DNA of 63,314 bases, from contig JABMQY010000014.1 of the NCBI GenBank assembly GCA_013202975.1, forward strand, positions 1 to 63,314, written 5' to 3'. Shown here one piece after another: positions 1 to 12,631 of the stretch. The notes under the pieces are model-generated. The model did not search any database and was not told the DNA's origin. It was given only the letters and a program-made list of their open reading frames with translations. Numbering within the stretch: the first letter of the stretch is position 1; the number at the start of each line of letters is the position of its first letter. Both the position numbers and the translations under genes were made by a program. The DNA is from Candidatus Saganbacteria bacterium. GTDB taxonomy: Bacteria; Margulisbacteria; WOR-1; XYC2-FULL-46-14.

Positions 1-1
1 G

Positions 2-1624
2 TTTAAACGATTAGGTTTTAAGGACAGAAATAACAACGGTATTATTGAAGCAAAAGAGAATAACCCACTAAATAGACTGATCAAGGCAGATGAGGGATAT
101 GGATCAATTCTCACTCCCCACCCGGCCGATACAAATAAGGACCGCAAAATTGATGAAAAAGAGTCCTGGAACTATTATTATCTGCAACACAAAGCGATGA
201 CCTCTGATATTTTTCTTGCAAGTGAATTAAAAGAGATGAAACATAAAGACAAAGCGGTATTTTTAAACAAAATAGCAGGTTATCTTGAAAACTCAGCAGA
301 TTTATTATCAAGTTTTTTGTCTGCCATCCTTCAAATCGGTGTTAGGAGTAACGACAAAGAACTGTGCGCATACGCAATTCATTCCATAAGAACTAACAAA
401 GATTTCCCGATCACCCTTTCTCACTCTGTAGGGAAAAAGGCTAAAAACATTAATGGCAAAAGGGCCAATGAGATATTTTTAGGTATAATAGAAAAAGAAC
501 CCAAAAAAAACACAATGAGAGTTTTTGACGGACTTCTGGGCAAAAAGAATAACCGCAACCTATTATTTGCCTATATTAAAAAAACCACAATAATAAGGAC
601 AAAAAAACCGGCTGAATACTTATTGGAAACAAAAACATATAAAAATGATAGCGAAAAAAAGAAATTGACTGCTTTTACATTAATATCTGATATCAAAAAA
701 TATGAAAATACAAAAACGCTTCGATCACTTAACTCTGATGCAATTCCGGCATTAAGAAAAGTTTTTCTGCAGGGATCAAGCGAAGAAAAAGAGACCGCAT
801 TAGATATATTAATTGAGACCAAGGACCCGGCAATTATTCCGCTTTTAACCGAATCAATTAACAATGACTTTCCTGCTTCCTCTCAGGTAAATTCAGTACA
901 TGCGCTTGCTAAATTTAACGGTACCGCAGTTTTTACCTATCTTTCGAGAATCTCACTATCATCTACAAAGGCAAGGGTAAGACTTGCAGCACTGGAAGGA
1001 ATAGCCAAAACAAATACCCCAAAAAAGATCGGTCTTTTTTCGCGCGTTCTCTTAAATGATAAAGATCAAAAGATTAGAAAATACGCAGCCTGGATATTAG
1101 GCAATGCAAAAAACCCCAAAACCTTTCCTGTTTTATATCATGCTTATAGGTCTGACACTGATGAAAAAGTAAAAAATCATGCCCTAATAGCCATCGGGAA
1201 GAGTGCCCATCCGCTGGCGGCAAAATTCCTGTCCGATTTATTAATGAACAGCAAAAATGATTCGACCAGGAGCATTGCGGCCCTTGCACTGATAAAAACA
1301 AAGAGCCCCTCCGCTTTTGATGCGCTATACAAAGCCTATAAGAATGATCGGAGCCTATTTGTCAGAATGAACGCCCTCGAAGCAATCGGCGCAACCAAAC
1401 ATCCAAAAGCGGTAACGGTATTATTTAAAGCCCTAACCGATCATTTCTCTAATACCGAAATCAAAATGAGCGCTGCACGAGGCTTAAGCGAAATTAACAA
1501 CAGAAGTGCTCTGAGTGCATTATCAACAGCCCTTAGAAATGAAGAGGCGCCAAACATCAAACGCTATATTAGAAACATGCTTGCCATCATGAAAAAGGAA
1601 ATGGAAAAACAGGGAGGGAAATAA
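2..1624 (+). CDS. HEAT/PBS-lyase repeat protein, 5'-partial (paralog 1 of tandem array)
   Basis: The frame of track ORF 197..1624 is open back to position 2 (FKRLGFKDRNNNGIIEAKENNPLNRLIKADEGYG...DTNKDRKIDEKESW), matching the N-termini of the next two ORFs, so the true start is upstream of the window. C-terminal HEAT repeats (VRLAALEGIA, IRKYAAWILG, VRMNALEAIG). Confidence 0.85.
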   Translation, partial: FKRLGFKDRNNNGIIEAKENNPLNRLIKADEGYGSILTPHPADTNKDRKIDEKESWNYYYLQHKAMTSDIFLASELKEMKHKDKAVFLNKIAGYLENSADLLSSFLSAILQIGVRSNDKELCAYAIHSIRTNKDFPITLSHSVGKKAKNINGKRANEIFLGIIEKEPKKNTMRVFDGLLGKKNNRNLLFAYIKKTTIIRTKKPAEYLLETKTYKNDSEKKKLTAFTLISDIKKYENTKTLRSLNSDAIPALRKVFLQGSSEEKETALDILIETKDPAIIPLLTESINNDFPASSQVNSVHALAKFNGTAVFTYLSRISLSSTKARVRLAALEGIAKTNTPKKIGLFSRVLLNDKDQKIRKYAAWILGNAKNPKTFPVLYHAYRSDTDEKVKNHALIAIGKSAHPLAAKFLSDLLMNSKNDSTRSIAALALIKTKSPSAFDALYKAYKNDRSLFVRMNALEAIGATKHPKAVTVLFKALTDHFSNTEIKMSAARGLSEINNRSALSALSTALRNEEAPNIKRYIRNMLAIMKKEMEKQGGK

Positions 1625-1625
1625 A

Positions 1626-4181
1626 ATGGGACTATGGTGCAACGGCGTTGAAGATTCGACCAAAAAGCTGCAGCTTGATTTTTTTGGTTCGCGGCAAAGA
1701 CTTTTTAAACATCTGGGCCTCAATGACCGGAATAATAACGGGGTAATAGAAGCAAAAGAGAAGAATCCACTTAACAAACTAATAAAGGCTGAAGAGGGAT
1801 ATGGTTCCTTCCTAAAAATCCATCCGGCAGACCTAAACCAAGACCGGAAAATCGACGAAAAAGAGGCCTGGATATATTTTGCGCAAATAAAACTACCCCT
1901 TACATCAGATAGATTTTTATTTAATGAATTAAAAGGAAAAAGCTTTGGTGATCAAAGCAAATTACTAAATAAAATAGTCGGATATCTAAAAAAACACCCC
2001 ATACTTTTAGAGAAGTTTTTCGCAAAAGTAATACAGGCCGCTTTAGAGAACAAAAAGGACAGATTGGAATTAATCAGCTACGTATTAAATTTTATCAAAC
2101 GGCACAGCAAAGATAGCAGGGGCATTCCACCGCTATCATATAACATAGGAAAACATATTAAAGGTTTGGAGAAAAAAAGCGCTCAGGCAATCTTTAAACA
2201 TATTCTACACAACAAAGTATTTAAACCGCTCCTAAGGAATACCGACCACGTTACGCAACAGTATTCATTCCAACAAACAAGAATAATCGGCGGCATCTTT
2301 GGTAAAAAAATGGCAAAAAGTCTATTTGCCGATTTCCGCAAAAGTTCAAGTCCAATAATAAGATTTAACGTTATCATGACCTTAATCCTGCTAAAAAGCT
2401 GCGATAGCGAACACGAAATAAAGCAATTATTCCAGGAACTCAAAACCCTTCTTTTGGCCATTCCCAATAGCTCTCTTTTACCAACTTTCTGCAACTATAT
2501 AAGAGAACATGGCGCCAGTCACTCCTCTGCACTTTTCCGCTCACTACTCAAAAAAGGCCCGGGAAAAATCAGGCATGAAGCTGCAAAAGCCCTGCTAATA
2601 ATGAGAATTTTTGAAAATGCAGCCGAAGAAAACAAACTAAAAGCTTATGTTCTGATTTACGAGAAAAAATTTGATGAACTTGCAAAACTGGGTGAAGCGG
2701 CAATTGATGAATCCGCTTATTGTCTCTTTAACGAGAAAGACAGATTAATTAGAATAAAGGCCGCTAATGTACTGGCTTCAATTAAAACAAATCGCGCAAT
2801 TGCAGTGCTATCAAATGCATTATCAAAAGAACATGATTTATACGTAAAAAGTGAAATGGTTTCTGCCCTTTTTAAGATCAACACGGAACAAGCACTTAGG
2901 GTATTATCCAAATTTCTATCCGAAGAAAAAAACCAAGGGCTGCTTGACAAAGTTGCCGAAAAAATAGCGGGCATCATTGAAGTATCGAATGACCCAAGAC
3001 ACATCCCCATGCTAATGACAATAATCACAAACCCCAATCTGACAATTTCCCACTCAACAGCAGTAAATATACTGTCCAGCAAATTAGTTGTGGACAAAGG
3101 AAAACTACTTAAGAGATTCCCTGATTTAGAAAATAGACTGGATTTGTTTTTCACCGGCGGAGACAGGCTGATAATTAAGGAGGAATTAAAAACTGCCCGA
3201 ATTAAAAACCAAAAACTACGCTCATTTATAGAATCACAGGTTCAAACAAGACAAGTTGCTAGAAATCTGATAATAGATCTTCTGAAAAAACCAAAAACCG
3301 CAAAAATGCTCTTTCCCCATATTAACGTAAGTGATCCGGCAGTAATCAAAGTTCTTGAAAAAATAACCTTTAACAAATGGGACTGGGAAACAAAGCCCGA
3401 TCAAGAGGAACTTAAAGATATCCGGGCAAAAGCGGCAGGCTTGCTGCTAAAACTAATAAAAGAACCCAAAAAGAGGATAAGGCTTATCAAATATCCCATT
3501 GTAAAAGTGCGCATACGCGCCATACTGGACATAGGTAATTCTGCCACAGAGAGAGACTGCAAATATTTTGCCACCAGATTCAGGATCGAAAAAAATCCCG
3601 CAGTTAAAAGGGCTCTGCTCTTAACCCTGGCAAGGGCAAAAGCATCTAAAATCATAAAAAAACTAATCAAAACCAATCCAGAAACAGAACAAGAGCTGAG
3701 AAATTTAATATTTAAGAATCAGGATAATTTCTATCTAGACAAAGAGATCTTTCTCTATTTGATCAATAGTTTTTTAAACATCAATATTAAACACATTCAA
3801 CTTCCAAATGAAAGTTTTTCCGAAACAGCCTATGCAAAAGATGCAGGTGGGGACGGAGCTGCAAAAAACACCCCGGCCATCTTTGACATTATATTTCCAA
3901 AATCCCTGCCAGCAAAACGCAACATTAGTGGAATCCTAATAAAGTACAAACACAGATACTCGGCCAGAACACACAACTCATATGCACACGGTGAATTTTC
4001 CCTTTCAAATGGGCTAAGGGTAAGGATGAAGTTTAAATATAGCGGACAAAAGACCATCTTTCTGGCCTGTAAAAGACTTCCTCAAAAATTGAAGCTTGAG
4101 GTCCGGCAGGGTGATCATATCGCAACTATTTCGATTGATGATGTGAAAATCGTTTACTCACAAGGGCAGGGAGAAAAATAA
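1626..4181 (+). CDS. HEAT-repeat protein with EF-hand-like N-terminus and beta-rich C-terminal domain (paralog 2)
   Basis: 851-aa ORF with GGAG RBS. Loops DRNNNGVIEAKE and DLNQDRKIDEKE, HEAT units (IRIKAANVLA, VRIRAILDIG), and a last ~120 aa that is beta-strand-like. Confidence 0.85.
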   Translation: MGLWCNGVEDSTKKLQLDFFGSRQRLFKHLGLNDRNNNGVIEAKEKNPLNKLIKAEEGYGSFLKIHPADLNQDRKIDEKEAWIYFAQIKLPLTSDRFLFNELKGKSFGDQSKLLNKIVGYLKKHPILLEKFFAKVIQAALENKKDRLELISYVLNFIKRHSKDSRGIPPLSYNIGKHIKGLEKKSAQAIFKHILHNKVFKPLLRNTDHVTQQYSFQQTRIIGGIFGKKMAKSLFADFRKSSSPIIRFNVIMTLILLKSCDSEHEIKQLFQELKTLLLAIPNSSLLPTFCNYIREHGASHSSALFRSLLKKGPGKIRHEAAKALLIMRIFENAAEENKLKAYVLIYEKKFDELAKLGEAAIDESAYCLFNEKDRLIRIKAANVLASIKTNRAIAVLSNALSKEHDLYVKSEMVSALFKINTEQALRVLSKFLSEEKNQGLLDKVAEKIAGIIEVSNDPRHIPMLMTIITNPNLTISHSTAVNILSSKLVVDKGKLLKRFPDLENRLDLFFTGGDRLIIKEELKTARIKNQKLRSFIESQVQTRQVARNLIIDLLKKPKTAKMLFPHINVSDPAVIKVLEKITFNKWDWETKPDQEELKDIRAKAAGLLLKLIKEPKKRIRLIKYPIVKVRIRAILDIGNSATERDCKYFATRFRIEKNPAVKRALLLTLARAKASKIIKKLIKTNPETEQELRNLIFKNQDNFYLDKEIFLYLINSFLNINIKHIQLPNESFSETAYAKDAGGDGAAKNTPAIFDIIFPKSLPAKRNISGILIKYKHRYSARTHNSYAHGEFSLSNGLRVRMKFKYSGQKTIFLACKRLPQKLKLEVRQGDHIATISIDDVKIVYSQGQGEK

Positions 4182-4182
4182 A

Positions 4183-6996
4183 ATGGGCCTATGGTGCAAT
4201 GGGGTTGAGGACTCAACCAAAAAACTGCAGCTTGATTATTTTGGCAGCCGGCAGAGACTATTTAAACGACTAGGCTACAAGGATCGAAATAATAATGGGG
4301 TAATTGATTTTGTTAAAAAGAGCTCTCTAAATAAATTAATAAAGGCCGACGAAGGTTACCACAGCACCTCATGCGCATACCCAGTTGATGATAACTGTGA
4401 CCAGAAAATAGATGAAAATGAGGCCTGGAGGCATTATGCCCGTATTTCACTAAACTCAACCTCCCTGGATCCATTCTTTCTAAATGAACTAAAAGGCAAA
4501 GACTTTAATGAGCAAAAAAAGTTCTTAGACAAAGTTGCTGGACACCTAAAGGGTAAATTTGGGTCGATGATCAGACTTTTATCCACTACCCTTCAAATCG
4601 GAATTAACAATAAAAGCACCGAATTAATCCGTTACGTTATTCACTACCTGCAGGGAAATTCAAAAAACAAAAACGGAATAGATCGAATGGCTTCTGTAAT
4701 TGGACAAAAGGTAAAAGGCTTTCAAGACAAAGATGTCCGGGAAATAATTAAAAAAATCATCAAAGAGGAACCAAAAGAGGGATTCGTCCCCTTCATAAAA
4801 ACTTTGGGCGGTATACTGGGAAAAAACCATGCAAAAACCTTTTTAGATGAAAAATGGCAGAGCACAAGCCCTTCAGATTTCCAATCTTTCGCAAAAGCAA
4901 TAACTCTTCTTGCCGTTGGCGCTGCAGACAGCCAAACCCGCACATACATTAAAAAAGCGATGCTCTCTGATGTTAACTTTGACTATAGACAAAAAATCCT
5001 TCGAGAGATTGAGGCAAAGAAACCTGTGGCTACTATCTTAAAAGAGAGCCTTAATTCCAAATTCAATTTCCCGCTTTTAAGTGAAAGGAGAAAAATAGCA
5101 CAGGTACTATTAAAAATGGGGGCTTCTGCAAGTGAGTTTGAAAAGAAAAGCTGGCATGGCTATGTTATTTTTAATCCTCCCGCAAATTTTCATCAAACCC
5201 AAAAAATGAAAGCCTTGGGAGATGCAGCCCTGCCCTCACTAAAAGCAGGCTTGAGAGACAATCAGAGCAAAGTTAGGGCCCATGCGGTCCTAATGCTTCG
5301 AAACATAAAAAGAGGACTCAGCCTAATTGTTAAATCCCTAAGAGATAGAGATCTTACTGTTCGCGAGATGGCAATTACCTGTTTAAAAGAGTTAAAAGAA
5401 AAACTCAAATACCCATATGAGTTTGAAGCAATCAGAGCAATTCTTCAATGCGCCGCAAGTTTTGTTGAAAAAATGACAGCTATTGAAATTTTAGGAGATC
5501 TAAAATACAAACCAGCAATTCCAGAGTTAACAAACCTCCTGCTAACCGATAAATCGGACCGGATTAGAAGAGCAGCAGCAGAAGCATTGGTAAAGATGGA
5601 TAGCATAAAAAGTATCTTAGCCTTAAAGAGAGTGCTAAAAAAAGGTCCCTCTTTGGATGTTAGAAAAGTTGCGACTGCTGCCATAAAGGCTTTTGCCCTA
5701 AAAAAGGGACACCCCATTAAAATAAAGATAAAATTAATCGAAATCCTGGTTGAAATCGGGCAGGTCAGCATTATTGCTCGTTTTGCTGAATATGATAAAA
5801 ATAACTCTATTCGAATCAAAGCAATCCAGGGATTATCAAAGATTAAGCACCCGGCAGTAATCCCGGTTCTTTTGAGAATTATAGAAAAGGACAAATCCCC
5901 TCTAGCCCAAAAGGAAGCGATGAATACCCTGACTCAAACTGACAATCACACGATTCCTGGGGCAATGCGTAAGATAGCAATTAATCATAGATCCGGAGCA
6001 ATAAGATTGCTAGCCCTAAAATATACTATAAAAAAAGGCGGATATGATATCGCCCCTACCCTTTCAACTATTCTAAAAAAAGATAGCCATCCAAAACTTA
6101 GAAAGATTGCAGCCAAGGCTTTATCAAAATTTAGCGGACGGGAGATTATTGGAGCATTATCACAATCTGCAACATATGATAAGGCCGGGGAAGTGCGGTC
6201 AGCTGCAAATTATTCTTTGGGTAAAATCGCAACTAATGCCAGCTTTCCAGACAAGATTCAAATAATGGCATTTCAGGGATTGATTAAGATGAAAAATCCG
6301 GTAAATATCCCGGTTCTCTCAAAATTTTTATTCGGTCCACATTTAATAGCAATTCGAAGAGATGCAGCCTGGGGACTGGGTTTATTAAAAAGCCCCAAAG
6401 CCATTCCGGCACTGATAAAGGCGGTTCAAACTGATAAATCTTATGTTGTTCAGATCACTTCTATCCGGGCATTGGCAAAAATCGGAGGAGGACAAACATC
6501 ACAAATTCTACTCGGTTTCCTGGCAAAGGCACAAGATAATAATCTAAAAATAATGATAGTAAATACCCTGGGAAAAAGCCGAGAAAAGAGCGCTGTCCCT
6601 GCTATCAAAAAAATCCTAAACCAAACAGTGCCAATTACCCTTAAAATATCCTGCATAAAAGCCTTGGGTAAAATAAACACCATTGAGGCAAATGCCCTGC
6701 TTCGGTATATTGCATCAAAAACCAATGACCCCTATTTGGGCGGAGAGGCAAGAATAGCATTAGAAGAGAGCGGTCATCCGGACAATATCTCTTTCTTTTC
6801 AACTATTATTAAAACCCACGACTCCCTAGCAGTCCGCTGCTCTGCGGCAAGGGCGCTTGGAAGAACAAAAAGCGCAAAGGCATATCCGATCCTTTTCTGG
6901 ATTTCTAAAAACGCCGGTGCCACACAACTAAAAGAGGCAGCAGAAAGGGCTATCAATAAAATTCAGTCTGCTAGAAATATACCCCAAAATAAGTGA
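4183..6996 (+). CDS. HEAT-repeat protein (paralog 3)
   Basis: 937-aa ORF with N-terminus nearly identical to 1626..4181 and many HEAT units (IRRAAAEALV, IRRDAAWGLG, VRCSAARALG). Confidence 0.88.
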   Translation: MGLWCNGVEDSTKKLQLDYFGSRQRLFKRLGYKDRNNNGVIDFVKKSSLNKLIKADEGYHSTSCAYPVDDNCDQKIDENEAWRHYARISLNSTSLDPFFLNELKGKDFNEQKKFLDKVAGHLKGKFGSMIRLLSTTLQIGINNKSTELIRYVIHYLQGNSKNKNGIDRMASVIGQKVKGFQDKDVREIIKKIIKEEPKEGFVPFIKTLGGILGKNHAKTFLDEKWQSTSPSDFQSFAKAITLLAVGAADSQTRTYIKKAMLSDVNFDYRQKILREIEAKKPVATILKESLNSKFNFPLLSERRKIAQVLLKMGASASEFEKKSWHGYVIFNPPANFHQTQKMKALGDAALPSLKAGLRDNQSKVRAHAVLMLRNIKRGLSLIVKSLRDRDLTVREMAITCLKELKEKLKYPYEFEAIRAILQCAASFVEKMTAIEILGDLKYKPAIPELTNLLLTDKSDRIRRAAAEALVKMDSIKSILALKRVLKKGPSLDVRKVATAAIKAFALKKGHPIKIKIKLIEILVEIGQVSIIARFAEYDKNNSIRIKAIQGLSKIKHPAVIPVLLRIIEKDKSPLAQKEAMNTLTQTDNHTIPGAMRKIAINHRSGAIRLLALKYTIKKGGYDIAPTLSTILKKDSHPKLRKIAAKALSKFSGREIIGALSQSATYDKAGEVRSAANYSLGKIATNASFPDKIQIMAFQGLIKMKNPVNIPVLSKFLFGPHLIAIRRDAAWGLGLLKSPKAIPALIKAVQTDKSYVVQITSIRALAKIGGGQTSQILLGFLAKAQDNNLKIMIVNTLGKSREKSAVPAIKKILNQTVPITLKISCIKALGKINTIEANALLRYIASKTNDPYLGGEARIALEESGHPDNISFFSTIIKTHDSLAVRCSAARALGRTKSAKAYPILFWISKNAGATQLKEAAERAINKIQSARNIPQNK

Positions 6997-7030
6997 AATT
7001 TCCTCCTTGAATTGACGATATATATATAGA
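6994..7030 (+). promoter_or_regulatory. Conserved alternative-sigma-like promoter, copy 1 (TGAAATTT-N14-CGATA-TATATATAG)
   Basis: TGAAATTT 6994-7001, 14-nt spacer, CGATA 7016-7020. Same motif and spacing as four other copies. Confidence 0.7.
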
Positions 7031-7063
7031 TAGATCACGAAGGACTGATAGGAGGTCTAAAAA

Positions 7064-7900
7064 GTGGCAATTGGAGCAACAAGAGTTCGAGCAAGACTTG
7101 AAACAATATTAACACCCAAATTAAATGATTTTAAAAGACCCCTAATTTCTAACCCACACTACGAAATGCCAAGGGGAACCAATGGTCATTCCTACAGAAG
7201 TGAAATAGCCATTGAAATTAATCCGGAAACAGCCTTAGATAATAGTACTCGTCTATATCTTCAGGCCACCAACTTTTTTCAGCTTAATCTGTTAAGACGA
7301 CTGCCGGGAGTCAAAACAATTTTGGGCAGCAGAAGAGAGAGGGAGGGCTGGGAACCCAAAAGATTTCGGAGAACTATCGGTTCTATTGCATCATTATTTG
7401 GAGTAGCTGCCGGCGGACTCGCATCTGCTATTTTTGTTTCACTCGGCTGGCCGGCATTAGTCGTCGGCGGTGCGGTTGGAGGTGGAATAGCATATAAATC
7501 CGGAGAGGATCTGGGTCAGCTGGCAGATTGGCTCATACCATCAGAGAAAAGCCTTGATAACTATGCAAACATAGTAGAGTTGGAGCTTAGCAGCCTAGAA
7601 TCTTTCCTATTTGACCCGCAACATACATTACCGCTTACCCCGCTGGATTTTATTTTATGCGTTTTAAAATATGATCCGCAGGCGTTATGCAAGTTTACTG
7701 TTGAGAATGATGGATTGCCACAAACCCAACCCATAAAAGAGCTTATAAACAGAGCAACCTTAGAAATGGTAAGAAGCAAAACCAGGGGAAGAACCCCCAT
7801 TTACACGCAAGAGGCGGTTGATGCACTAGAAGAAATAATCGAAAGAAGAGAAGCCGAAACTGAAGCATCAAGGAGAAACCTAGAAAATGGGGGTCATTAA
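7064..7900 (+). CDS. Hypothetical membrane protein with glycine-zipper-like hydrophobic hairpin
   Basis: 278-aa ORF, GTG start with GGAGG RBS. Central segment IASLFGVAAGGLASAIFVSLGWPALVVGGAVGGGIAY. Confidence 0.75.
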   Translation: MAIGATRVRARLETILTPKLNDFKRPLISNPHYEMPRGTNGHSYRSEIAIEINPETALDNSTRLYLQATNFFQLNLLRRLPGVKTILGSRREREGWEPKRFRRTIGSIASLFGVAAGGLASAIFVSLGWPALVVGGAVGGGIAYKSGEDLGQLADWLIPSEKSLDNYANIVELELSSLESFLFDPQHTLPLTPLDFILCVLKYDPQALCKFTVENDGLPQTQPIKELINRATLEMVRSKTRGRTPIYTQEAVDALEEIIERREAETEASRRNLENGGH

Positions 7901-10900
7901 CAATTGTAATATTGACGCGACAAACCGCCTGTTCCCCTCTTTAAACAAGAACTATAAAGATAAGGATGAGAGCTGTTCAATTGATGCTATAACTGCAAAG
8001 AAAAAACAAAAAGACATTCGCTACAGAATACTCAGCAGGCTTGAACAGAACAAATATGTAAAAGAGGGACTAAAGAAGATTGGCAGGAACGGAATAACCG
8101 GAGAAGGCTACGGCAATCCACAAAAATGCCATCCCCTTGATATTAACTGTGATAGAAAAATCTGCGAAAAAGAGGGCTGGATTGCTTATTTGTCCAATAA
8201 TGACAGCTCAAAAAAGTTCCTCCTTTTAGAATTAAACAAAATCAAGAATTTTAACGATAAAAAAACCTTTCTTGATAAAATAGCAAATTTGGCAAGAGAA
8301 AACAAAAAGGCGCTAAGTAATCTCCTGGCGGCATCGCTACAGGAAGGAATAGATAAAAAAGACAAAGAGCTGATCCTATATGTCCTCAATTATTTATGGG
8401 GCTCGACAAAGAACCACAAAGGAATCCACCCTCTCTGCATTATGGTTGGCAAAAATGTTTCCGGCCTAACAAATGATAAAGTAAAACCTATATTAGAAAA
8501 AATACTGGATGACAAAACCCGCAACAAAGACAAAAGAAAAGAAAAAGAAAAAGATTTTCCATATGCCTTTGTAAAAGTTGTGGTTGCAGTGCTGGGAAGA
8601 ATTGATGCGGAGCAAATGTTTCCCGATGATAATTTCCATTCCAGCGCAAACATAAACCGCACAAACATCGCTGCTGCAATAGGATTTTTATTAATAAGAA
8701 ATAAAGAATTTGTTAACGAGACCGACATCCATCATTCTTACCTCAAAAACCAACTGGGGCGCTATAGTGGTTCTGATAAATTTAAAAATGAAATATGCCG
8801 GGGATTTTATGAAATAGGAGACAAAAAAAGCATCGGAGCTCTGCGCACCGTGCTTTCAAATTCAAATAGTTTTTCGGTCTGCCTGACTGCTGTTAATTAT
8901 TTACTTTCACTAAAAGCCTTCCGTGATGACAGAGAAAAAAAAGAATGGCAGGCATACCAGATGATATCTGCAAGGGATCAAAAAGGATTAATCAAACTTA
9001 GGGATTGGGCCATACCGGCGCTTAGAAATGCAATCTTTGAAGAAAATGATGAAGAAGTTATTAAGCTTGCCGCCGAAACCCTCGGAAAGATCGGATCTGA
9101 CCAGGCTGTTTACAATTTATCAGCTCCGCTCTATCGATTAAACAACTATAAACACGGCAAGTTATTAGTAGCTGCGTTAGGCGCAACAAAGAGCCCAAAG
9201 GCGATCCGTGCACTTGCGGAAGAGTTACGAACAAAGGATCTGATGATACCTTCACTTGAAGCTCTGTATATGCTAAATCTGCCGGAAAAAACAATCCCAA
9301 TCCTTAAAGAAACAAAAGACCAACACCCTTTTGTAAATGTAAGGGCTCAAGCCGCAGAAATACTAATAAGGTTAAAACAATATCGCAATAATGAAGAAAA
9401 AGAGGAATTGAACAGTTTTAACCTGATAGCCAAAAACAAATGGAAAGAAGTAAGAAAAAATAAAACCATTGCCATTCCGGCCTTAATCAGCGCCTGCTTA
9501 TATGACCAGGATACTAATGTTCGCAACCAGGCGGCCTATACCCTCAAACTAATCGATATCCAAAAAACCAACACCCTTTTGCTTTCAACAATAAAAAATA
9601 ACAAATATTCTTTTGAAATAATGATAAAGGCAACTAAAGCGCTTGCCGTTATTTCTGACAAAAAAAATATCCTGCCATTAATTAGAATATTCAATAAGAG
9701 CAAATCTGATTATTTTAAAGCAGAAATAGTGCGAACCCTGGGATTTACCGGAGGACCAATAGTTGAAAGATTCTTAAAAAAAGCCATAAGAAACAAACGC
9801 CTGATAATAAGACAGGCTGCTGTCTCAGCCTTTGTTCTAAAAATTACCCCTCAAAAAATACAAACCCTCAGAAACTTTCTAAATGACCCCAACGCACGAA
9901 TAAGGGGGACAGCGGCAAGAGCCCTTATGCGCCTCAAACTTTATAAAAAACCAGCTCTAATGGCGCATGTCATGATCGACTCAATCACTTTCCCCAATTC
10001 AAAGAAGGGGGATGACGACACAAAAATATGGGAAAAAATTGAAAAACTTGGAAATCCGGCCCTCCCGGCGCTAATTTTAACCGTAAAAGATGGACCGACC
10101 CATGTCCATGAAGAAAATGCGGCCAGGATACTTGGGTTAATTGGCAATCCAAAAGCCTGTCCGGCTTTAGGGTATGCGCTGCTTTCCAACCGTGAGGAGA
10201 AGGTAAGAAAAATGGCAGCCTGGGCATTGGGCAAGATTAGAAGTTCGTCTGCGGTCACTTCCCTACACAAAGCTTGGGATTTGGAGAAACACCATGCCAC
10301 AAAAAAAATGATCTTAGAAGCTTTGACAATAACCCTTCGGGGGGATAAAAAGATATTTTTCTTAACAAAAGTATTGCGCGAAGAACAAAATGCCCATCTT
10401 AGAGCAAAAGCAGCTCAACTTTTGCTCAGAATAAATCCGGCACTCGACAGCAAAACAAAACAGTTCCTTGAAGCATACAGTCTTATTGCCGGAAATAAAC
10501 ATTACAAATGGAAAAGATTAGAAAAGATTGGATCACAGGCTATTCCGGCCCTTTCGGCCTTCTTATTACAAAAGAATCCCTGTAATACTGATAACAATTA
10601 TTCATGTGGGGAAAAATTTAACGAAAACCGGCAACAGGCAATTGTCCTCCTAGGGAAAACAAAAGACCAAAAAGCACTAAAGGCACTATTTTTTGTTCTG
10701 AAAAATGATTTTCCCGTTGAACTAGAAATATCAGCGGTTGAATCAATTGGAAATTTAAACCAGCCTTATGCAGCACTCATTCTAATCAAACACTTAAATT
10801 CAGATTATTACAAGCTCACGATTAAAATACTTAAAATTCTTCGCTGCCTAGGAAACTCCGACCCCAAAACAATAAGGGCTCTCAACAATTTAATAAAAAG

Positions 10901-11537
10901 TAGCTCTTCAGAAATTCGAGCAGAGGCAGCCGAAACACTGTTAAAATTTAACGCCTATACCAGCACAACGCAAGCGCGAACCTTAAAACTGCATATACTG
11001 CTTGCAAACAAAAAACCGGACAAATGGATAGAAATATTTCGCTTTGCCGAAACAGCAGTACCGGTTCTTAATTTTGCATTATTAAATGATGATAATTACA
11101 CAATCCGCTCGGATTGTGCCCGGGCATTGGGATGGATAAAAGACAAGAGATCGCTGAAATATTTATTGCGGGCTTCAAGAACAGATAATACGAATGTCGT
11201 CAGAGTAGCGGCAGCAAAAGCGCTTGGTTATTTTGGGGACAAAAGAGCCATACCGGCCCTTAGAAGAAGCTTAAAGGGAAGATATGTACAAGTTCGATCA
11301 GCAGCCGCTTTTGGACTTTTAAAATTGAAAGATTACAAAAATATTGCCCAGAAAGAAGTTCTAAAGGCTCATTTATTAATCGGCAGCAAAAATAAAAAAA
11401 GATGGAAAAAACTTAAAAAACTGGGCAAAAACGCACTGCCAGTACTAAAAAGATTTCGAGATGAGCTTGGTCACTGGAATGACGATAGACCAATAGTTCA
11501 AAACCTAATTGAAACTATCGAAAAAGAGAAAAAATAG
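7887..11537 (+). CDS. Large HEAT-repeat protein (divergent paralog 4)
   Basis: 1216-aa ORF. Shares EGYG...HPLDINCDRKICEKEGW and the FLxxEL...FLDKIA helical block with paralogs 1-3, followed by many HEAT units. Confidence 0.88.
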   Translation: MGVINNCNIDATNRLFPSLNKNYKDKDESCSIDAITAKKKQKDIRYRILSRLEQNKYVKEGLKKIGRNGITGEGYGNPQKCHPLDINCDRKICEKEGWIAYLSNNDSSKKFLLLELNKIKNFNDKKTFLDKIANLARENKKALSNLLAASLQEGIDKKDKELILYVLNYLWGSTKNHKGIHPLCIMVGKNVSGLTNDKVKPILEKILDDKTRNKDKRKEKEKDFPYAFVKVVVAVLGRIDAEQMFPDDNFHSSANINRTNIAAAIGFLLIRNKEFVNETDIHHSYLKNQLGRYSGSDKFKNEICRGFYEIGDKKSIGALRTVLSNSNSFSVCLTAVNYLLSLKAFRDDREKKEWQAYQMISARDQKGLIKLRDWAIPALRNAIFEENDEEVIKLAAETLGKIGSDQAVYNLSAPLYRLNNYKHGKLLVAALGATKSPKAIRALAEELRTKDLMIPSLEALYMLNLPEKTIPILKETKDQHPFVNVRAQAAEILIRLKQYRNNEEKEELNSFNLIAKNKWKEVRKNKTIAIPALISACLYDQDTNVRNQAAYTLKLIDIQKTNTLLLSTIKNNKYSFEIMIKATKALAVISDKKNILPLIRIFNKSKSDYFKAEIVRTLGFTGGPIVERFLKKAIRNKRLIIRQAAVSAFVLKITPQKIQTLRNFLNDPNARIRGTAARALMRLKLYKKPALMAHVMIDSITFPNSKKGDDDTKIWEKIEKLGNPALPALILTVKDGPTHVHEENAARILGLIGNPKACPALGYALLSNREEKVRKMAAWALGKIRSSSAVTSLHKAWDLEKHHATKKMILEALTITLRGDKKIFFLTKVLREEQNAHLRAKAAQLLLRINPALDSKTKQFLEAYSLIAGNKHYKWKRLEKIGSQAIPALSAFLLQKNPCNTDNNYSCGEKFNENRQQAIVLLGKTKDQKALKALFFVLKNDFPVELEISAVESIGNLNQPYAALILIKHLNSDYYKLTIKILKILRCLGNSDPKTIRALNNLIKSSSSEIRAEAAETLLKFNAYTSTTQARTLKLHILLANKKPDKWIEIFRFAETAVPVLNFALLNDDNYTIRSDCARALGWIKDKRSLKYLLRASRTDNTNVVRVAAAKALGYFGDKRAIPALRRSLKGRYVQVRSAAAFGLLKLKDYKNIAQKEVLKAHLLIGSKNKKRWKKLKKLGKNALPVLKRFRDELGHWNDDRPIVQNLIETIEKEKK

Positions 11538-11550
11538 CTGCCTTTTAGCC

Positions 11551-11579
11551 TTGCTATCTCAAACAAACTATATTATACT
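11551..11579 (+). promoter_or_regulatory. sigma70-type promoter, probably leaderless transcript
   Basis: TTGCTA-17-TATACT, with the ATG of 11588 only 8 nt after the -10 box and no Shine-Dalgarno. Confidence 0.6.
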
Positions 11580-11587
11580 TTTCTCAA

Positions 11588-12631
11588 ATGGCAATGTTTT
11601 ATCCGTATTTTGAACTGGCGGCTTCGCTCTTTATTTTACTGCTTTGTTTTCAAATTTACACCCGGCATTATACTAACAAAGTAGCGCGTTTCTACTCTTA
11701 TTTTGCCCTGATCGCCTTTTTGGCAGCGATCTTAACCTTTTCACTAAGAATTGCCCTGACCCTGGAACTGGCCCGCAACATTAACCGTATAAGCGCAAGC
11801 GTCTGGTGCTTTGTCTTTGCCATGTACGCCCACTTTGCCTTAATCTTTGCCAGAAAATGGACCTTCTTAAAAAGCAAATTGAGTTCAGTAATACTATATT
11901 TACCCCCTGCGCTGCTCAGTTTGTTATTTCTTTTTACTAATCAGATGTATAGCCGCTACGAAATCACTCCGGTTGGGATCGTAAGCCAGCCGGCACCGCT
12001 CTATTCACTATTTATTCTGCTGACAGTCATTTATACTATCTGGGGAATAACCCTATTTATTATTGACACAAAAGGGGCCCCTCAGGAAACAGAGAGAAAA
12101 CAGGCATTAATAATTGCAGCCGGTTCCATCCTTGCAATAGTTATTGGAATAACCTCTGATCAAATAATTCCCCTGGTCATGCAGGTCCGCTACCTTCCTC
12201 CTACTGCAGTATTTAGCATCACCTTATTGAATCTATCCATTTTTCTCGCTATGAGAAAATATAGTCTCTTTGCCATCTCCCCTGCCTTTGCTGCTGATAT
12301 TATTATAAAAACAATGCCGGATGCAATGCTGGCAACAGACTTAGAGGGGAAGATATTATTTATTAACGAAGAATATAAAAAATTATTTTGTGATAAATCA
12401 GAAACATGTGTCGGAACAAATATTTCATCCCTCTTTAAAGATCCCCAAAAATACCAGCAGCTTTTTAATGAGGTGGTTTTTAAGAAAAAAGAGATCCTGC
12501 GTTTTGAAGCCGAACTGATTGACCCTCTGGGCGAACGAATCCCGGCTCTGATTAACGCTAACCTTTTGCGGGATAAACTGCTGGGAGACCTGCTAGGGAT
12601 TATTTTCATTATCAGGGATATTAGGGGCTGA
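11588..12631 (+). CDS. HisKA_7TM-like membrane sensor + PAS domain, no output domain
   Basis: About 7 hydrophobic helices, then a PAS-like segment (MPDAMLATDLEGKILFINEEY...IIFIIRDI) ending at the stop. Confidence 0.75.
   Translation: MAMFYPYFELAASLFILLLCFQIYTRHYTNKVARFYSYFALIAFLAAILTFSLRIALTLELARNINRISASVWCFVFAMYAHFALIFARKWTFLKSKLSSVILYLPPALLSLLFLFTNQMYSRYEITPVGIVSQPAPLYSLFILLTVIYTIWGITLFIIDTKGAPQETERKQALIIAAGSILAIVIGITSDQIIPLVMQVRYLPPTAVFSITLLNLSIFLAMRKYSLFAISPAFAADIIIKTMPDAMLATDLEGKILFINEEYKKLFCDKSETCVGTNISSLFKDPQKYQQLFNEVVFKKKEILRFEAELIDPLGERIPALINANLLRDKLLGDLLGIIFIIRDIRG

What the first reader, a model, noticed from the sequence alone, without database searches (positions are those of the whole stretch)
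1626..4266. N-terminal 28 residues under strong purifying selection: candidate export/targeting signal
Seen: paralogs 2 and 3 begin MGLWCNGVEDSTKKLQLD[F/Y]FGSRQRLFK. In these 28 codons I count 11 synonymous codon differences but only 1 amino-acid change, while the rest of the proteins diverge heavily. This is not a recent copy; the peptide itself is conserved. It has no hydrophobic h-region, so it is not a Sec, Tat or lipoprotein signal. Inference: a recognition sequence for a chaperone, a secretion machine or a modifying enzyme (Cys5).
Basis: partly seen in the sequence, partly recalled or inferred. Interest (0 to 1): 0.62.

Follow-up and report, generated by a model that had tools for sequence, protein, structure and literature searches.

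The report
Conserved cysteine tag on EF-hand/HEAT paralogs
Five sister genes in an uncultured Saganbacteria genome begin with the same peptide, MGL[W/Y]CNG..., which selection has kept although it is no known export signal; its cysteine sits where related proteins carry their lipid-anchor cysteine, so it is probably a membrane-anchoring or export tag of an undescribed kind, which is unproven.

Summary
Paralogs 2 and 3 differ at 11 synonymous codons and one residue (F19Y) in codons 1-28. Three more copies in the genome start MGL[W/Y]CNG. Synonymous sites are saturated everywhere, and residues 1-10 are the most conserved block of the N-terminal 235 alignment columns.

The 28 residues are a composite:
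- Residues about 21-28 are the entering helix of EF-hand 1. They are structural and shared with remote homologs.
- Residues 13-22 (KKLQLDFF) are shared with one further paralog.
- Residues 1-12 are a clade-specific extension that modelled with low confidence. The most divergent paralog keeps it even though about 29 extra residues separate it from the EF domain.

It is not a Sec, Tat or lipoprotein signal. The new point is that relatives carry one of two things at the same place. Some have a true lipoprotein leader plus Cys. Others have an ultra-short leaderless Met, 2-5 mostly hydrophobic residues, Gly, Cys start. Cys-to-EF-hand spacing is fixed in both.

My best reading is a Sec-independent anchoring or targeting module built round Cys5. 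It also fits the eukaryotic Gly2/Cys5 dual-acylation pattern. The family lies behind sigma-28-type promoters, and the class has FlhA but no detectable flagellin, so export through a flagellar-type apparatus is a live rival. Nothing is proven. Interest is moderate.

The parts
1626..1685 (+). par2 residues 1-20, MGLWCNGVEDSTKKLQLDFF: the N-terminal module, with invariant G2, L3, C5, N6, G7 and KKLQ[LI]D[FY]
   Evidence: pLDDT below 50 for residues 1-19
1686..1709 (+). par2 residues 21-28, GSRQRLFK: start of the entering helix of EF-hand 1 (structural part of the 28-residue block)
   Evidence: helix 22-29, with residues 21-30 at mean pLDDT 84; conserved as xQxLFKxLGF in remote homologs
1725..1760 (+). 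par2 EF-hand loop 1, DRNNNGVIEAKE (residues 34-45)
   Evidence: fits the canonical 12-residue EF loop on inspection; weak Pfam EF-hand_1 match at 34-45; the family profile hits EF-hand proteins in the PDB, best E=1e-7
1830..1865 (+). par2 EF-hand loop 2, DLNQDRKIDEKE (residues 69-80)
   Evidence: D69, N71, D73, K75, I76, E78 and E80 are invariant in seven paralogs
4183..4242 (+). par3 residues 1-20, MGLWCNGVEDSTKKLQLDYF: the N-terminal module
4243..4266 (+). par3 residues 21-28: start of the EF-hand 1 entering helix
2..1624 (+). par1, cut at its 5' end by the contig end; its start MGLYCNGADDSAKKLQLDFASPRQRLFK lies on contig C95:187-5
1626..4181 (+). par2, 851 aa: N-terminal module, EF-hand pair, helical region with HEAT repeats, C-terminal beta domain
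4183..6996 (+). par3, 937 aa: N-terminal module, EF-hand pair, long HEAT solenoid
7887..7934 (+). par4 residues 1-16, MGVINNCNIDATNRLF: a diverged copy of the module (M1, G2, N6, D10, T12 and L15 shared; Cys at position 7). The Cys unit is repeated at residues 30-44 (CSIDAITAKKKQKDI)
   Evidence: alignment by eye and by MAFFT
1605..1628 (+). par1/par2 junction: GGGAGG Shine-Dalgarno inside the end of par1, then TAA, one base, ATG
4162..4185 (+). par2/par3 junction: GGGAG Shine-Dalgarno, then TAA, one base, ATG
6994..7021 (+). sigma-28-type promoter-like motif TGAAAT-N16-CGATAT before the 278-aa ORF and par4; the same motif precedes the first gene of the array on contig C95

Best explanation
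The 28-residue block is two things joined.

Residues about 21-28 are the entering helix of the first EF-hand. They are conserved for structural reasons.

Residues 1-20 are a separate, probably flexible N-terminal module built round the invariant Cys5 (MGL[W/Y]CNG, then an acidic/Ser-Thr stretch, then KKLQLDFF). This Cys corresponds in position to the lipid-attachment Cys (+1) of lipoprotein relatives of the same EF-hand family.

I read the module as a Sec-independent membrane-anchoring or targeting tag. Cys5, and possibly Gly2 once the initiator Met is removed, would be acylated or otherwise captured. The EF-hand/HEAT body would then hang from a membrane on a tether of about 25 residues, as it does in the Sec/Lgt-processed relatives.

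Shown: purifying selection on the peptide; absence of any classical signal; positional correspondence and enrichment of the N-terminal Cys; low-confidence, undocked modelling; retention of the module in the most divergent paralog.

Inferred: that the Cys is modified, which enzyme does it, and in which compartment it happens (the bacterial envelope after non-Sec export, or a eukaryotic partner cell).

My odds:
- Some targeting or modification motif: about 0.55-0.6.
- Specifically a Cys5-based lipid or covalent anchor: about 0.3.
- Specifically a flagellar-type export signal: about 0.2-0.25.
The last two readings can both be true.
For: 1. Selection on the peptide. There are 11 synonymous changes against 1 replacement. 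Mean pN is 0.11-0.13 in codons 1-28 against 0.44 beyond codon 90, with pS saturated. Residues 1-10 are the best conserved window.

2. Not part of a confident fold. Residues 1-19 have pLDDT below 50 in the 1-199 model and residues 1-13 in the full-length model, and neither model docks them.

3. Independence from the EF domain. par4 keeps M1, G2, N6, D10, T12, L15 and a Cys, although about 29 extra residues lie before its degenerate EF domain, and it repeats the Cys unit. C101 lacks MGLWC but keeps ...GC followed by KLxLDFF.

4. Family context.
- Remote homologs carry true lipoprotein leaders: P0009, P0010, L002, L004.
- Others have Met, 1-5 residues, Gly, Cys with stop codons 2-6 codons upstream and good Shine-Dalgarno sequences: MIITGC, MIYGC, MNGC, MYIGC, MFIGC, MVKMVVGC, MFFLSGC.
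- My residue count on those sequences gives a Cys-to-EF-loop spacing of 21-23 residues in most of both kinds. It is 17 in MFIGC, 26 in C101 and 30 in the MGLWC clade.
- About 10 of 23 leaderless lineages have Cys within the first 8 residues, against a genome background of 7.5% (binomial p=2.5e-6).

5. MGLWCNG and par4's MGVINNC fit the PROSITE N-myristoylation pattern with a nearby Cys (inspection). Host lipidation of Gly2 and Cys in bacterial effectors is documented (PMC4951486).

6. The start codons are secure. Each has a Shine-Dalgarno sequence 7-10 nt upstream, and no in-frame start lies upstream.
Against: - No bacterial enzyme is known that lipidates a leaderless N-terminal Cys. From established knowledge, Lgt, which this genome has, acts on translocated signal peptides.
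- Nothing shows a eukaryotic partner. No VirB4-type secretion system was found, and the TLC transporter search was uninformative.
- The residue before Cys5 is W or Y, not the small residue of a lipobox.
- N at position 6 and the acidic residues at 9-10 are not the best NMT context (from memory).
- N-terminal Cys and MG..C starts are not enriched genome-wide or among genes behind the sigma-28-type motif. No general pathway is therefore visible.
- The structure models rest on 6-7 sequences, so low pLDDT is weak evidence of disorder.
- No close homologs exist outside this genome, so the analysis rests on paralogs only.
Confidence: 0.4

Rival explanations
1. Export signal for a flagellin-less flagellar-type III export apparatus. 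The unstructured first 20 or so residues would be recognised by the FlhA/FlhB gate or by a chaperone. The EF-hand/HEAT proteins would then leave the cell without Sec, under sigma-28-type transcriptional control. This can coexist with the anchor reading.
For: - FlhA is present in this genome (810 bits) and in 11 of 12 relatives.
- Flagellin_N is absent from all 13 genomes, including a single-contig genome.
- The GTGAAAT-N15-CGATAT motif lies upstream of the first gene of the array, the ORF278/par4 unit, C101, C101b and C111. About 0.014 hits are expected per 200 nt.
- Relatives with Sec or lipoprotein leaders imply that the domain works outside the cytoplasm.
- The signal is N-terminal and modelled with low confidence.
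- Non-flagellar cargo with N-terminal signals, and flagellum-less FT3SS use, have precedents (PMC2764114, PMC5223770, PMC7688988).
Against: - Type III signals are normally not conserved in sequence. Here single residues (G2, C5, N6, G7) are invariant.
- The roughly 140 other genes behind the same promoter motif do not share the peptide.
- This reading does not explain why Cys is kept at a fixed distance in relatives.
- All relatives, with or without leaders, have FlhA, so there is no co-variation.
- The earlier follow-up e1-5215683 found nothing to show that the regulon's products are secreted.
Confidence: 0.22
2. Purely intramolecular element. Residues 1-20 would form a cap or latch that packs on the EF-hand pair or the first helical repeats, for example as a Ca2+-dependent autoinhibitory peptide. 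Cys5 would be a structural or redox residue.
For: - Conservation is continuous from residue 1 through both EF loops.
- Residues 21-28 are demonstrably part of the EF-hand.
- The full-length model draws one long helix over residues 10-29, at low confidence.
- The hydrophobic residues L3, W4, L15, L17, F19 and F20 could dock into an EF-hand cleft.
Against: - Neither model predicts docking.
- par4 keeps the module about 29 residues further from a degenerate EF domain.
- No conserved partner Cys exists in the N-terminal domain (alignment).
- Relatives replace the segment by a cleavable lipoprotein leader while keeping the Cys.
- The hydrophobic moment is low, so it is not an amphipathic helix.
Confidence: 0.25
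3. Constraint at the nucleic-acid level: translational coupling, a start-region mRNA structure, a recombination or gene-conversion tract, or a hidden overlapping gene.
For: - The junctions are tight (TAA, one base, ATG), and the Shine-Dalgarno sequence plus AAAATGGG context is conserved.
- pS in codons 1-28 of par2 versus par3 (0.59) is somewhat lower than in the following regions (0.77-0.78).
Against: - Third positions vary freely, while amino acids do not.
- Ser22 uses TCG in one copy and AGC in the other.
- The two copies that are not preceded by a paralog (C50, C95a) keep the same peptide.
- The minus-strand frame over 1523-1777 is only an 84-aa ORF with no support.
Confidence: 0.03

Closest known systems
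Dual-acylated N-termini of type III effectors (AvrRpm1, AvrB, AvrPto, HopF2, XopE1/2, XopJ) and the S-palmitoylated N-terminal Cys of Salmonella SspH2/SseI (review PMC4951486; PMC2708883)
   Same: Met-Gly start with a Cys within a few residues at the extreme N-terminus of a signal-peptide-less bacterial protein. In SspH2/SseI the Cys lies in an N-terminal domain conserved between the two effectors. The function there is membrane anchoring after delivery.
   Different: No host, injectisome or delivery is known for Saganbacteria. The relatives' motif (Met, hydrophobic residues, Gly, Cys) lacks Gly2. The module here is longer (about 20 residues), and residues that have no role in NMT recognition are also conserved.
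Bacterial lipoproteins (Sec or Tat export, Lgt, LspA; lipobox [LVI][ASTVI][GAS]C)
   Same: The Cys occupies the same position relative to the EF-hand pair as the +1 Cys of true lipoprotein homologs. Many leaderless relatives still have a lipobox-like xxGC. The genome has Lgt.
   Different: There is no n-region or h-region, only four residues precede the Cys, and the -1 residue is W or Y. Lgt/LspA processing as currently understood cannot apply.
N-myristoylated EF-hand sensors of eukaryotes (recoverin/NCS family, calcineurin B, plant CBLs); from my own knowledge
   Same: The architecture: an acylatable MG(..C) N-terminus, a short linker, then EF-hands.
   Different: No sequence relationship beyond the EF-hand loops. 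Here the EF pair caps a long HEAT solenoid, and the organism is a bacterium without NMT.
Non-flagellar cargo of flagellar type III export (Campylobacter jejuni Cia/Fed proteins, PMC2764114, PMC5223770; FT3SS of non-flagellated Lysobacter enzymogenes, PMC7688988)
   Same: An N-terminal signal without Sec features, co-regulation with a flagellar-type sigma factor, and an export apparatus present without a filament protein.
   Different: Export is untested here. Known signals are not conserved in sequence.
   Same: Paralogous or mosaic proteins with divergent bodies keep a common N-terminal region that directs secretion.
   Different: That domain is about 140 residues long and is tied to an injectisome.

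Membership tests
Sec (type I) signal peptide | Positively charged n-region, a hydrophobic h-region of at least about 7-15 residues, and a small-x-small cleavage site | tested here: not met
   In MGLWCNGVEDSTKKLQLDFF the longest hydrophobic run is 3 residues. No in-frame start lies upstream.
Tat signal peptide | Twin-arginine motif (S/T-R-R-x-F-L-K) before an h-region | tested here: not met
   No RR and no h-region in residues 1-28.
Bacterial lipoprotein (type II signal) | Lipobox [LVI][ASTVI][GAS]C with the Cys at about position 15-35, after an h-region | tested here: not met
   The Cys is at position 5, and the -1 residue is W or Y. Remote homologs P0009, P0010, L002 and L004 do meet the feature.
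Bacterial lipoprotein (type II signal) | Lgt present in the genome | tested here: met
   PF01790 match, 215 bits, at C3:10162-10854.
Eukaryote-type N-myristoylation substrate | N-terminal M-G-{EDRKHPFYW}-x(2)-[STAGCN]-{P} (PROSITE PS00008, pattern recalled from memory) | tested here: met
   G2-L3-W4-C5-N6-G7 fits, and par4 G2-V3-I4-N5-N6-C7 fits (inspection). The pattern carries little information.
Eukaryote-type N-myristoylation substrate | Access to an N-myristoyltransferase, that is, delivery into a eukaryotic cytosol | not testable with these tools
   No VirB4 was found, and the TLC search was uninformative.
   Cys5 lies next to L3 and W4, and relatives have hydrophobic residues followed by G-C. 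The modification itself cannot be tested here.
Type III (flagellar) export substrate | Export apparatus present | tested here: met
   FlhA in the own genome and in 11 of 12 relatives. Flagellin_N is absent from all 13 genomes.
Type III (flagellar) export substrate | A disordered N-terminal 20-30 residues sufficient for export | tested here: inconclusive
   pLDDT is below 50 for residues 1-19 and 1-13, but the alignment is shallow. Export cannot be tested here.
EF-hand pair | Two 12-residue loops of the D-x-[DNS]-x-[DNS]-G-x-I-x-x-x-E type about 35 residues apart, with flanking helices | tested here: met
   The loops are at residues 34-45 and 69-80. The family profile hits EF-hand proteins in the PDB (1jfj at E=1e-7, SCaMC-1, CDPK, calmodulin). 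Pfam matches are below the cut-offs. In par3 the last residue of loop 1 is K rather than E.
HEAT-repeat solenoid | Pfam HEAT_2, HEAT and HEAT_PBS matches above the gathering scores | tested here: met
   HEAT_2 E-values are 2e-12 for par2, 2e-62 for par3, 9e-62 for par4 and 5e-37 for par1.

The most novel reading that the evidence does not exclude
Saganbacteria would have a route to anchored or exported proteins that bypasses Sec and LspA. A very short N-terminal tag ending in Cys (Met, 2-5 residues, (Gly), Cys; here elaborated to MGLWCNG...) would replace the lipoprotein signal peptide. The tagged proteins would be handled by the class-wide flagellin-less flagellar export apparatus under sigma-28-type control, and/or by an unknown acyltransferase. 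That would be a 'leaderless lipoprotein' pathway. Alternatively, the tag is acylated by a eukaryotic partner, which would mark these groundwater bacteria as effector-injecting symbionts.
Probability: 0.12. Interest if true: 0.85.

Novelty: new variant of a known kind. Interest (0 to 1): 0.5.

Why it matters
If the tag is a real anchoring or export signal, three things would follow:
- It would define how a signal-peptide-less family of Ca2+-binding solenoid proteins reaches its place of work in a phylum with no cultured member.
- It would suggest what a flagellar export apparatus without flagellin is for.
- It might reveal a lipidation route outside the Sec/Lgt/LspA paradigm, or an unsuspected association with eukaryotic cells.

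If it is only a structural cap, the finding is an ordinary lineage-specific N-terminal extension. Either way, the series running from a full lipoprotein leader down to Met-x-x-Gly-Cys within one domain family is a concrete, testable observation.

Tried and rejected
- **Orthologs for proper dN/dS.** None exist. The word-indexed search of 5.8 billion proteins, the HMM search of 1.84 billion representatives and the six-frame search of 146 phylum genomes found the MGLWC family only in this genome. Only the EF pair has remote matches.
- **Fold comparison.** Foldseek of the 1-199 model against the PDB gave nothing significant (best E=0.55).
- **Full-length structure model.** It was low in confidence over residues 1-120 and uninformative about docking.
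- **Genome-wide enrichment of N-terminal Cys.** None: 89 of 1191 SD-supported ORFs (7.5%), matching the expectation from Cys frequency.
- **Enrichment among genes behind the sigma-28-type motif.** None: 13 of 140, p=0.41.
- **MG..C starts.** About as many as chance predicts once the paralogs are counted once.
- **Consensus sigma-70 promoter and terminator scan of 1-12000.** Not above the shuffled background.
- **Other contigs spanning the C95/C128 break.** Not found.
- **Homologs of the MFIGC protein.** Only one ortholog was found.
- **ATP/ADP translocase as a marker of intracellular life.** No hit, but the control did not ring, so the result is uninformative.
- **VirB4.** Absent.
- **Readings rejected.** A recombination or gene-conversion tract and an mRNA-level constraint are rejected because of the synonymous variation. 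An Ntn-hydrolase-type propeptide is rejected because the fold is wrong. An amphipathic membrane helix is rejected because the hydrophobic moment is low.
Full report
**What is there**

The window begins inside a tandem array of paralogous genes on the + strand:
- par1 (2-1624, cut at its 5' end by the contig end)
- par2 (1626-4181)
- par3 (4183-6996)
- a 278-aa ORF (7064-7900)
- par4 (7887-11537)

All four paralogs are HEAT-repeat proteins by Pfam. Their first 200 or so residues form a shared module with two EF-hand loops. In par2 these are DRNNNGVIEAKE at residues 34-45 and DLNQDRKIDEKE at 69-80. A profile of this region hits EF-hand proteins of known structure. The best hit is the Entamoeba calcium-binding protein 1jfj at E=1e-7, followed by SCaMC-1, CDPKs and calmodulin. 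Pfam's own EF-hand models match only below their cut-offs.

The genes abut as TAA, one base, ATG. A GGGAG(G) Shine-Dalgarno sequence sits inside the end of the upstream gene.

**Check of the observation**

The first 28 codons of par2 and par3 differ at 11 codons synonymously, including TCG versus AGC for Ser22. They differ at one codon by a replacement, F19Y. Nei-Gojobori counts give pS=0.59 and pN=0.053 for these codons. Changed versus unchanged synonymous and non-synonymous sites give Fisher p=1e-5.

A tblastn search of the whole 2.2-Mb assembly with the 28-mer finds five such starts:
- par2 and par3
- C50:1967(-): MGLWCNGVDDTSKKLQLDFVSSRQRLFK
- C95:1991(-): MGLWCNGVDDSAKKLQIDFFSTRQKIFK
- C95:187(-): MGLYCNGADDSAKKLQLDFASPRQRLFK

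The last of these is almost certainly the missing head of par1. The end of contig C95 overlaps the start of the window by about 108 nt with two mismatches. The array is therefore probably C95a-par1-par2-par3.

Over all ten pairs, synonymous sites are saturated everywhere (pS 0.6-0.9). Mean pN is 0.11 for codons 1-12, 0.13 for 13-28, 0.23 for 29-90 and 0.44 beyond codon 90. The first ten residues are the single best conserved 10-residue window of the N-terminal 235 alignment columns (pairwise identity 0.86). G2, L3, C5, N6 and G7 are each spelled with different codons in different copies (start regions printed).

Two points need correcting. Conservation does not end at residue 28 but continues through both EF loops. 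And because pS is saturated, a numerical dN/dS is not meaningful.

**The block is a composite**

Remote homologs of the EF pair conserve the stretch xQxLFKxLGF that runs straight into EF loop 1 (alignment). AlphaFold models residues 22-29 of par2 as a helix, and residues 21-30 have a mean pLDDT of 84. Residues about 21-28 are therefore the entering helix of EF-hand 1.

Residues 13-22 (KKLQLDFFxS) are shared with one further paralog, C101:23050(-). That gene starts MSTLTELLFGGSSGAKGCSKREKLGLDFFSSKQRLYK.

Residues 1-12 are confined to the five copies. They have pLDDT below 50 in both models and are docked nowhere. The alignments hold only 6-7 sequences, so this is weak evidence.

The most divergent paralog, par4, still begins MGVINNCNIDATNRLF. 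Position by position this shares M1, G2, N6, D10, T12 and L15 with MGLWCNGVEDSTKKLQ, and its Cys is moved to position 7. It then repeats the Cys unit (CSIDAITAKKKQKDI, residues 30-44) before a degenerate EF domain. The module is thus kept even when it is displaced from the EF domain. That argues against a simple structural cap.

**What it is not**

- The longest hydrophobic run is three residues.
- There is no twin arginine.
- The Cys is at position 5 and is preceded by W or Y, not by a lipobox.
- In-frame stops lie 1-12 codons upstream with no start codon between them and the ATG. Every ATG has a Shine-Dalgarno sequence 7-10 nt upstream.

The peptide is therefore the true N-terminus and is not a Sec, Tat or lipoprotein signal. 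Nucleotide-level explanations (coupling, mRNA structure, recombination site) are excluded by the free variation of third positions.

**The family context, which is the main new result**

The MGLWC family has no close relative anywhere:
- The word-indexed search of 5.8 billion proteins found none.
- The HMM search of 1.84 billion representatives found none.
- The six-frame search of 146 genomes of the phylum found none.

Earlier notes identify the phylum as Margulisiibacteriota and the class as Saganbacteria. I did not check the taxonomy myself.

Remote homologs of the EF pair do exist, and their N-termini are informative.

Some have real lipoprotein leaders followed by Cys:
- P0009: ...LALIVVPLCGC
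- P0010: ...LGIAALTGC
- L002: MIAPIILLGGAALGFSAC
- L004: MLLIAALAFLPLSC

Others begin with only Met, one to six mostly hydrophobic residues, Gly and Cys:
- MIITGC and MIYGC, two neighbouring genes in a single-contig genome
- MNGC
- MYIGC and its ortholog MFIGC in this genome (C101:40488(-))
- MVKMVVGC
- MFFLSGC
- MGGC in this genome (C111:2306(+), an EF-hand-like plus HEAT protein)

For the three short starts whose upstream DNA I examined in detail (MIITGC, MIYGC, MNGC), stop codons lie two to six codons upstream and the Shine-Dalgarno sequences are good.

By my count on these sequences, the distance from the Cys to the first Asp of EF loop 1 is 21-23 residues in most members of both groups. 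It is 17 in MFIGC, 26 in C101 and 30 in the MGLWC clade.

About 10 of 23 leaderless lineages have a Cys within the first eight residues. The measured genome background is 7.5% (89 of 1191 ORFs), which gives a binomial p of 2.5e-6. The lineage count is mine and approximate.

Cys5 of MGLWC therefore corresponds in position to the lipid-attachment Cys of lipoprotein relatives. The family shows a series from a full leader to almost none, with the Cys always retained.

**Wider setting**

The promoter-like motif GTGAAAT-N15-CGATAT was described as sigma-28-like by earlier follow-ups on this genome. It stands before these units:
- C95a, the first gene of the array
- the ORF278/par4 unit (window 6994-21)
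- C101
- C101b
- C111

About 0.014 hits are expected by chance per 200 nt.

The genome encodes FlhA (810 bits) and Lgt, but no Flagellin_N domain. The same holds for relatives. FlhA is present in 11 of 12 genomes, and Flagellin_N is absent from all 12, including a single-contig genome. VirB4 is absent. The ATP/ADP translocase search was uninformative.

There is no genome-wide or regulon-wide excess of N-terminal Cys or MG..C starts. If a pathway exists, this protein family is its main visible client.

**How it most likely works**

I commit to this reading. Residues 1-20 are a Sec-independent anchoring or targeting module centred on Cys5, which descends from or replaces the lipoprotein anchor of relatives. 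The Cys, and perhaps Gly2 after Met removal, is acylated or otherwise captured. The EF-hand/HEAT body then hangs from a membrane by a short tether.

The sequence also fits the eukaryotic dual-acylation pattern (Gly2, a permitted residue at position 6, a nearby Cys). Many type III effectors use this pattern to reach host membranes (PMC4951486, PMC2708883). Nothing here shows a host, however.

Precedents are Campylobacter non-flagellar cargo (PMC2764114, PMC5223770) and the FT3SS of a non-flagellated Lysobacter (PMC7688988). Against it, type III signals are normally not conserved residue by residue, and it leaves the Cys unexplained.

A purely intramolecular latch remains possible, at about 0.25.

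Shown:
- selection on the peptide
- absence of classical signals
- positional correspondence and enrichment of the Cys
- the promoter context
- FlhA present without detectable flagellin

Inferred:
- any modification
- any export
- the compartment in which the module acts

**Novelty and verdict**

The leaderless Met-xx-Gly-Cys series in an EF-hand family is, to my knowledge, undescribed. It is testable with simple fusions and mass spectrometry.

Interest is moderate (0.5). It would be high only if a new anchoring or export route were demonstrated.

Noticed in passing
own genome C126:657-2621(-); relatives G143, G145, G086, G128, G102, G122, G112, G083, G088, G091, G028: FlhA (PF00771, about 810-830 bits) is present in the own genome and in 11 of 12 relatives checked. 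Flagellin_N (PF00669) is absent from all 13 genomes, including a single-contig genome. The class seems to keep a flagellar-type export gate without a recognisable filament protein.
   Followed up: partly
window 6994-7021; C95 46 nt upstream of 1991(-); C101 upstream of 23050(-) and 40488(-); C111 upstream of 2306(+): The GTGAAAT-N15-CGATAT promoter-like motif (about 120-300 copies genome-wide, depending on strictness) precedes most transcription units of the EF-hand/HEAT family.
   Followed up: partly
own genome C101:40488(-) and locus L028 (G143:C24): The orthologous 446/447-aa proteins start MFIGC and MYIGC. The promoter's -10-like box ends only about 14 nt before the ATG and there is no Shine-Dalgarno sequence, so the mRNA may be leaderless or nearly so.
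   Followed up: no
window 3800-4181 (par2 C-terminus); C101 paralog C-terminus; P0010, P0016: A beta-rich C-terminal domain of about 110 residues is shared by par2, the C101 paralog and two remote lipoprotein-type homologs (...SGQKT[IV]FL.C...[LV]P..L..EV.QGDH... in par2 and C101, weaker in the two remote homologs). It has no Pfam match in par2 or in the other window paralogs.
   Followed up: no
own genome C111:2306(+), 853 aa: A protein starting MGGC has EF-hand-like loops (DTKNRNGKWDEE, DQDGDRAISPSE), HEAT-like repeats and a C-terminal region that looks like an SAM-dependent methyltransferase (judged by eye only).
   Followed up: no
window 7064-7900: A 278-aa ORF lies between par3 and par4. 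It has a GTG start and a Gly/Ala-rich hydrophobic segment (IASLFGVAAGGLASAIFVSLGWPALVVGGAVGGGIAY), has no Pfam match, and overlaps the par4 start by 14 nt.
   Followed up: no
window 1-108 and contig C95:1-110: The contig ends overlap by about 108 nt with two mismatches, so the array probably continues upstream as C95a-par1. The same break occurs in the JGI records found (L047, L048).
   Followed up: partly
window 4282-4317: In par3 the last residue of EF loop 1 is Lys instead of Glu/Asp (DRNNNGVIDFVK), so this loop may not bind Ca2+. The first EF loop of par4 is degenerate.
   Followed up: no
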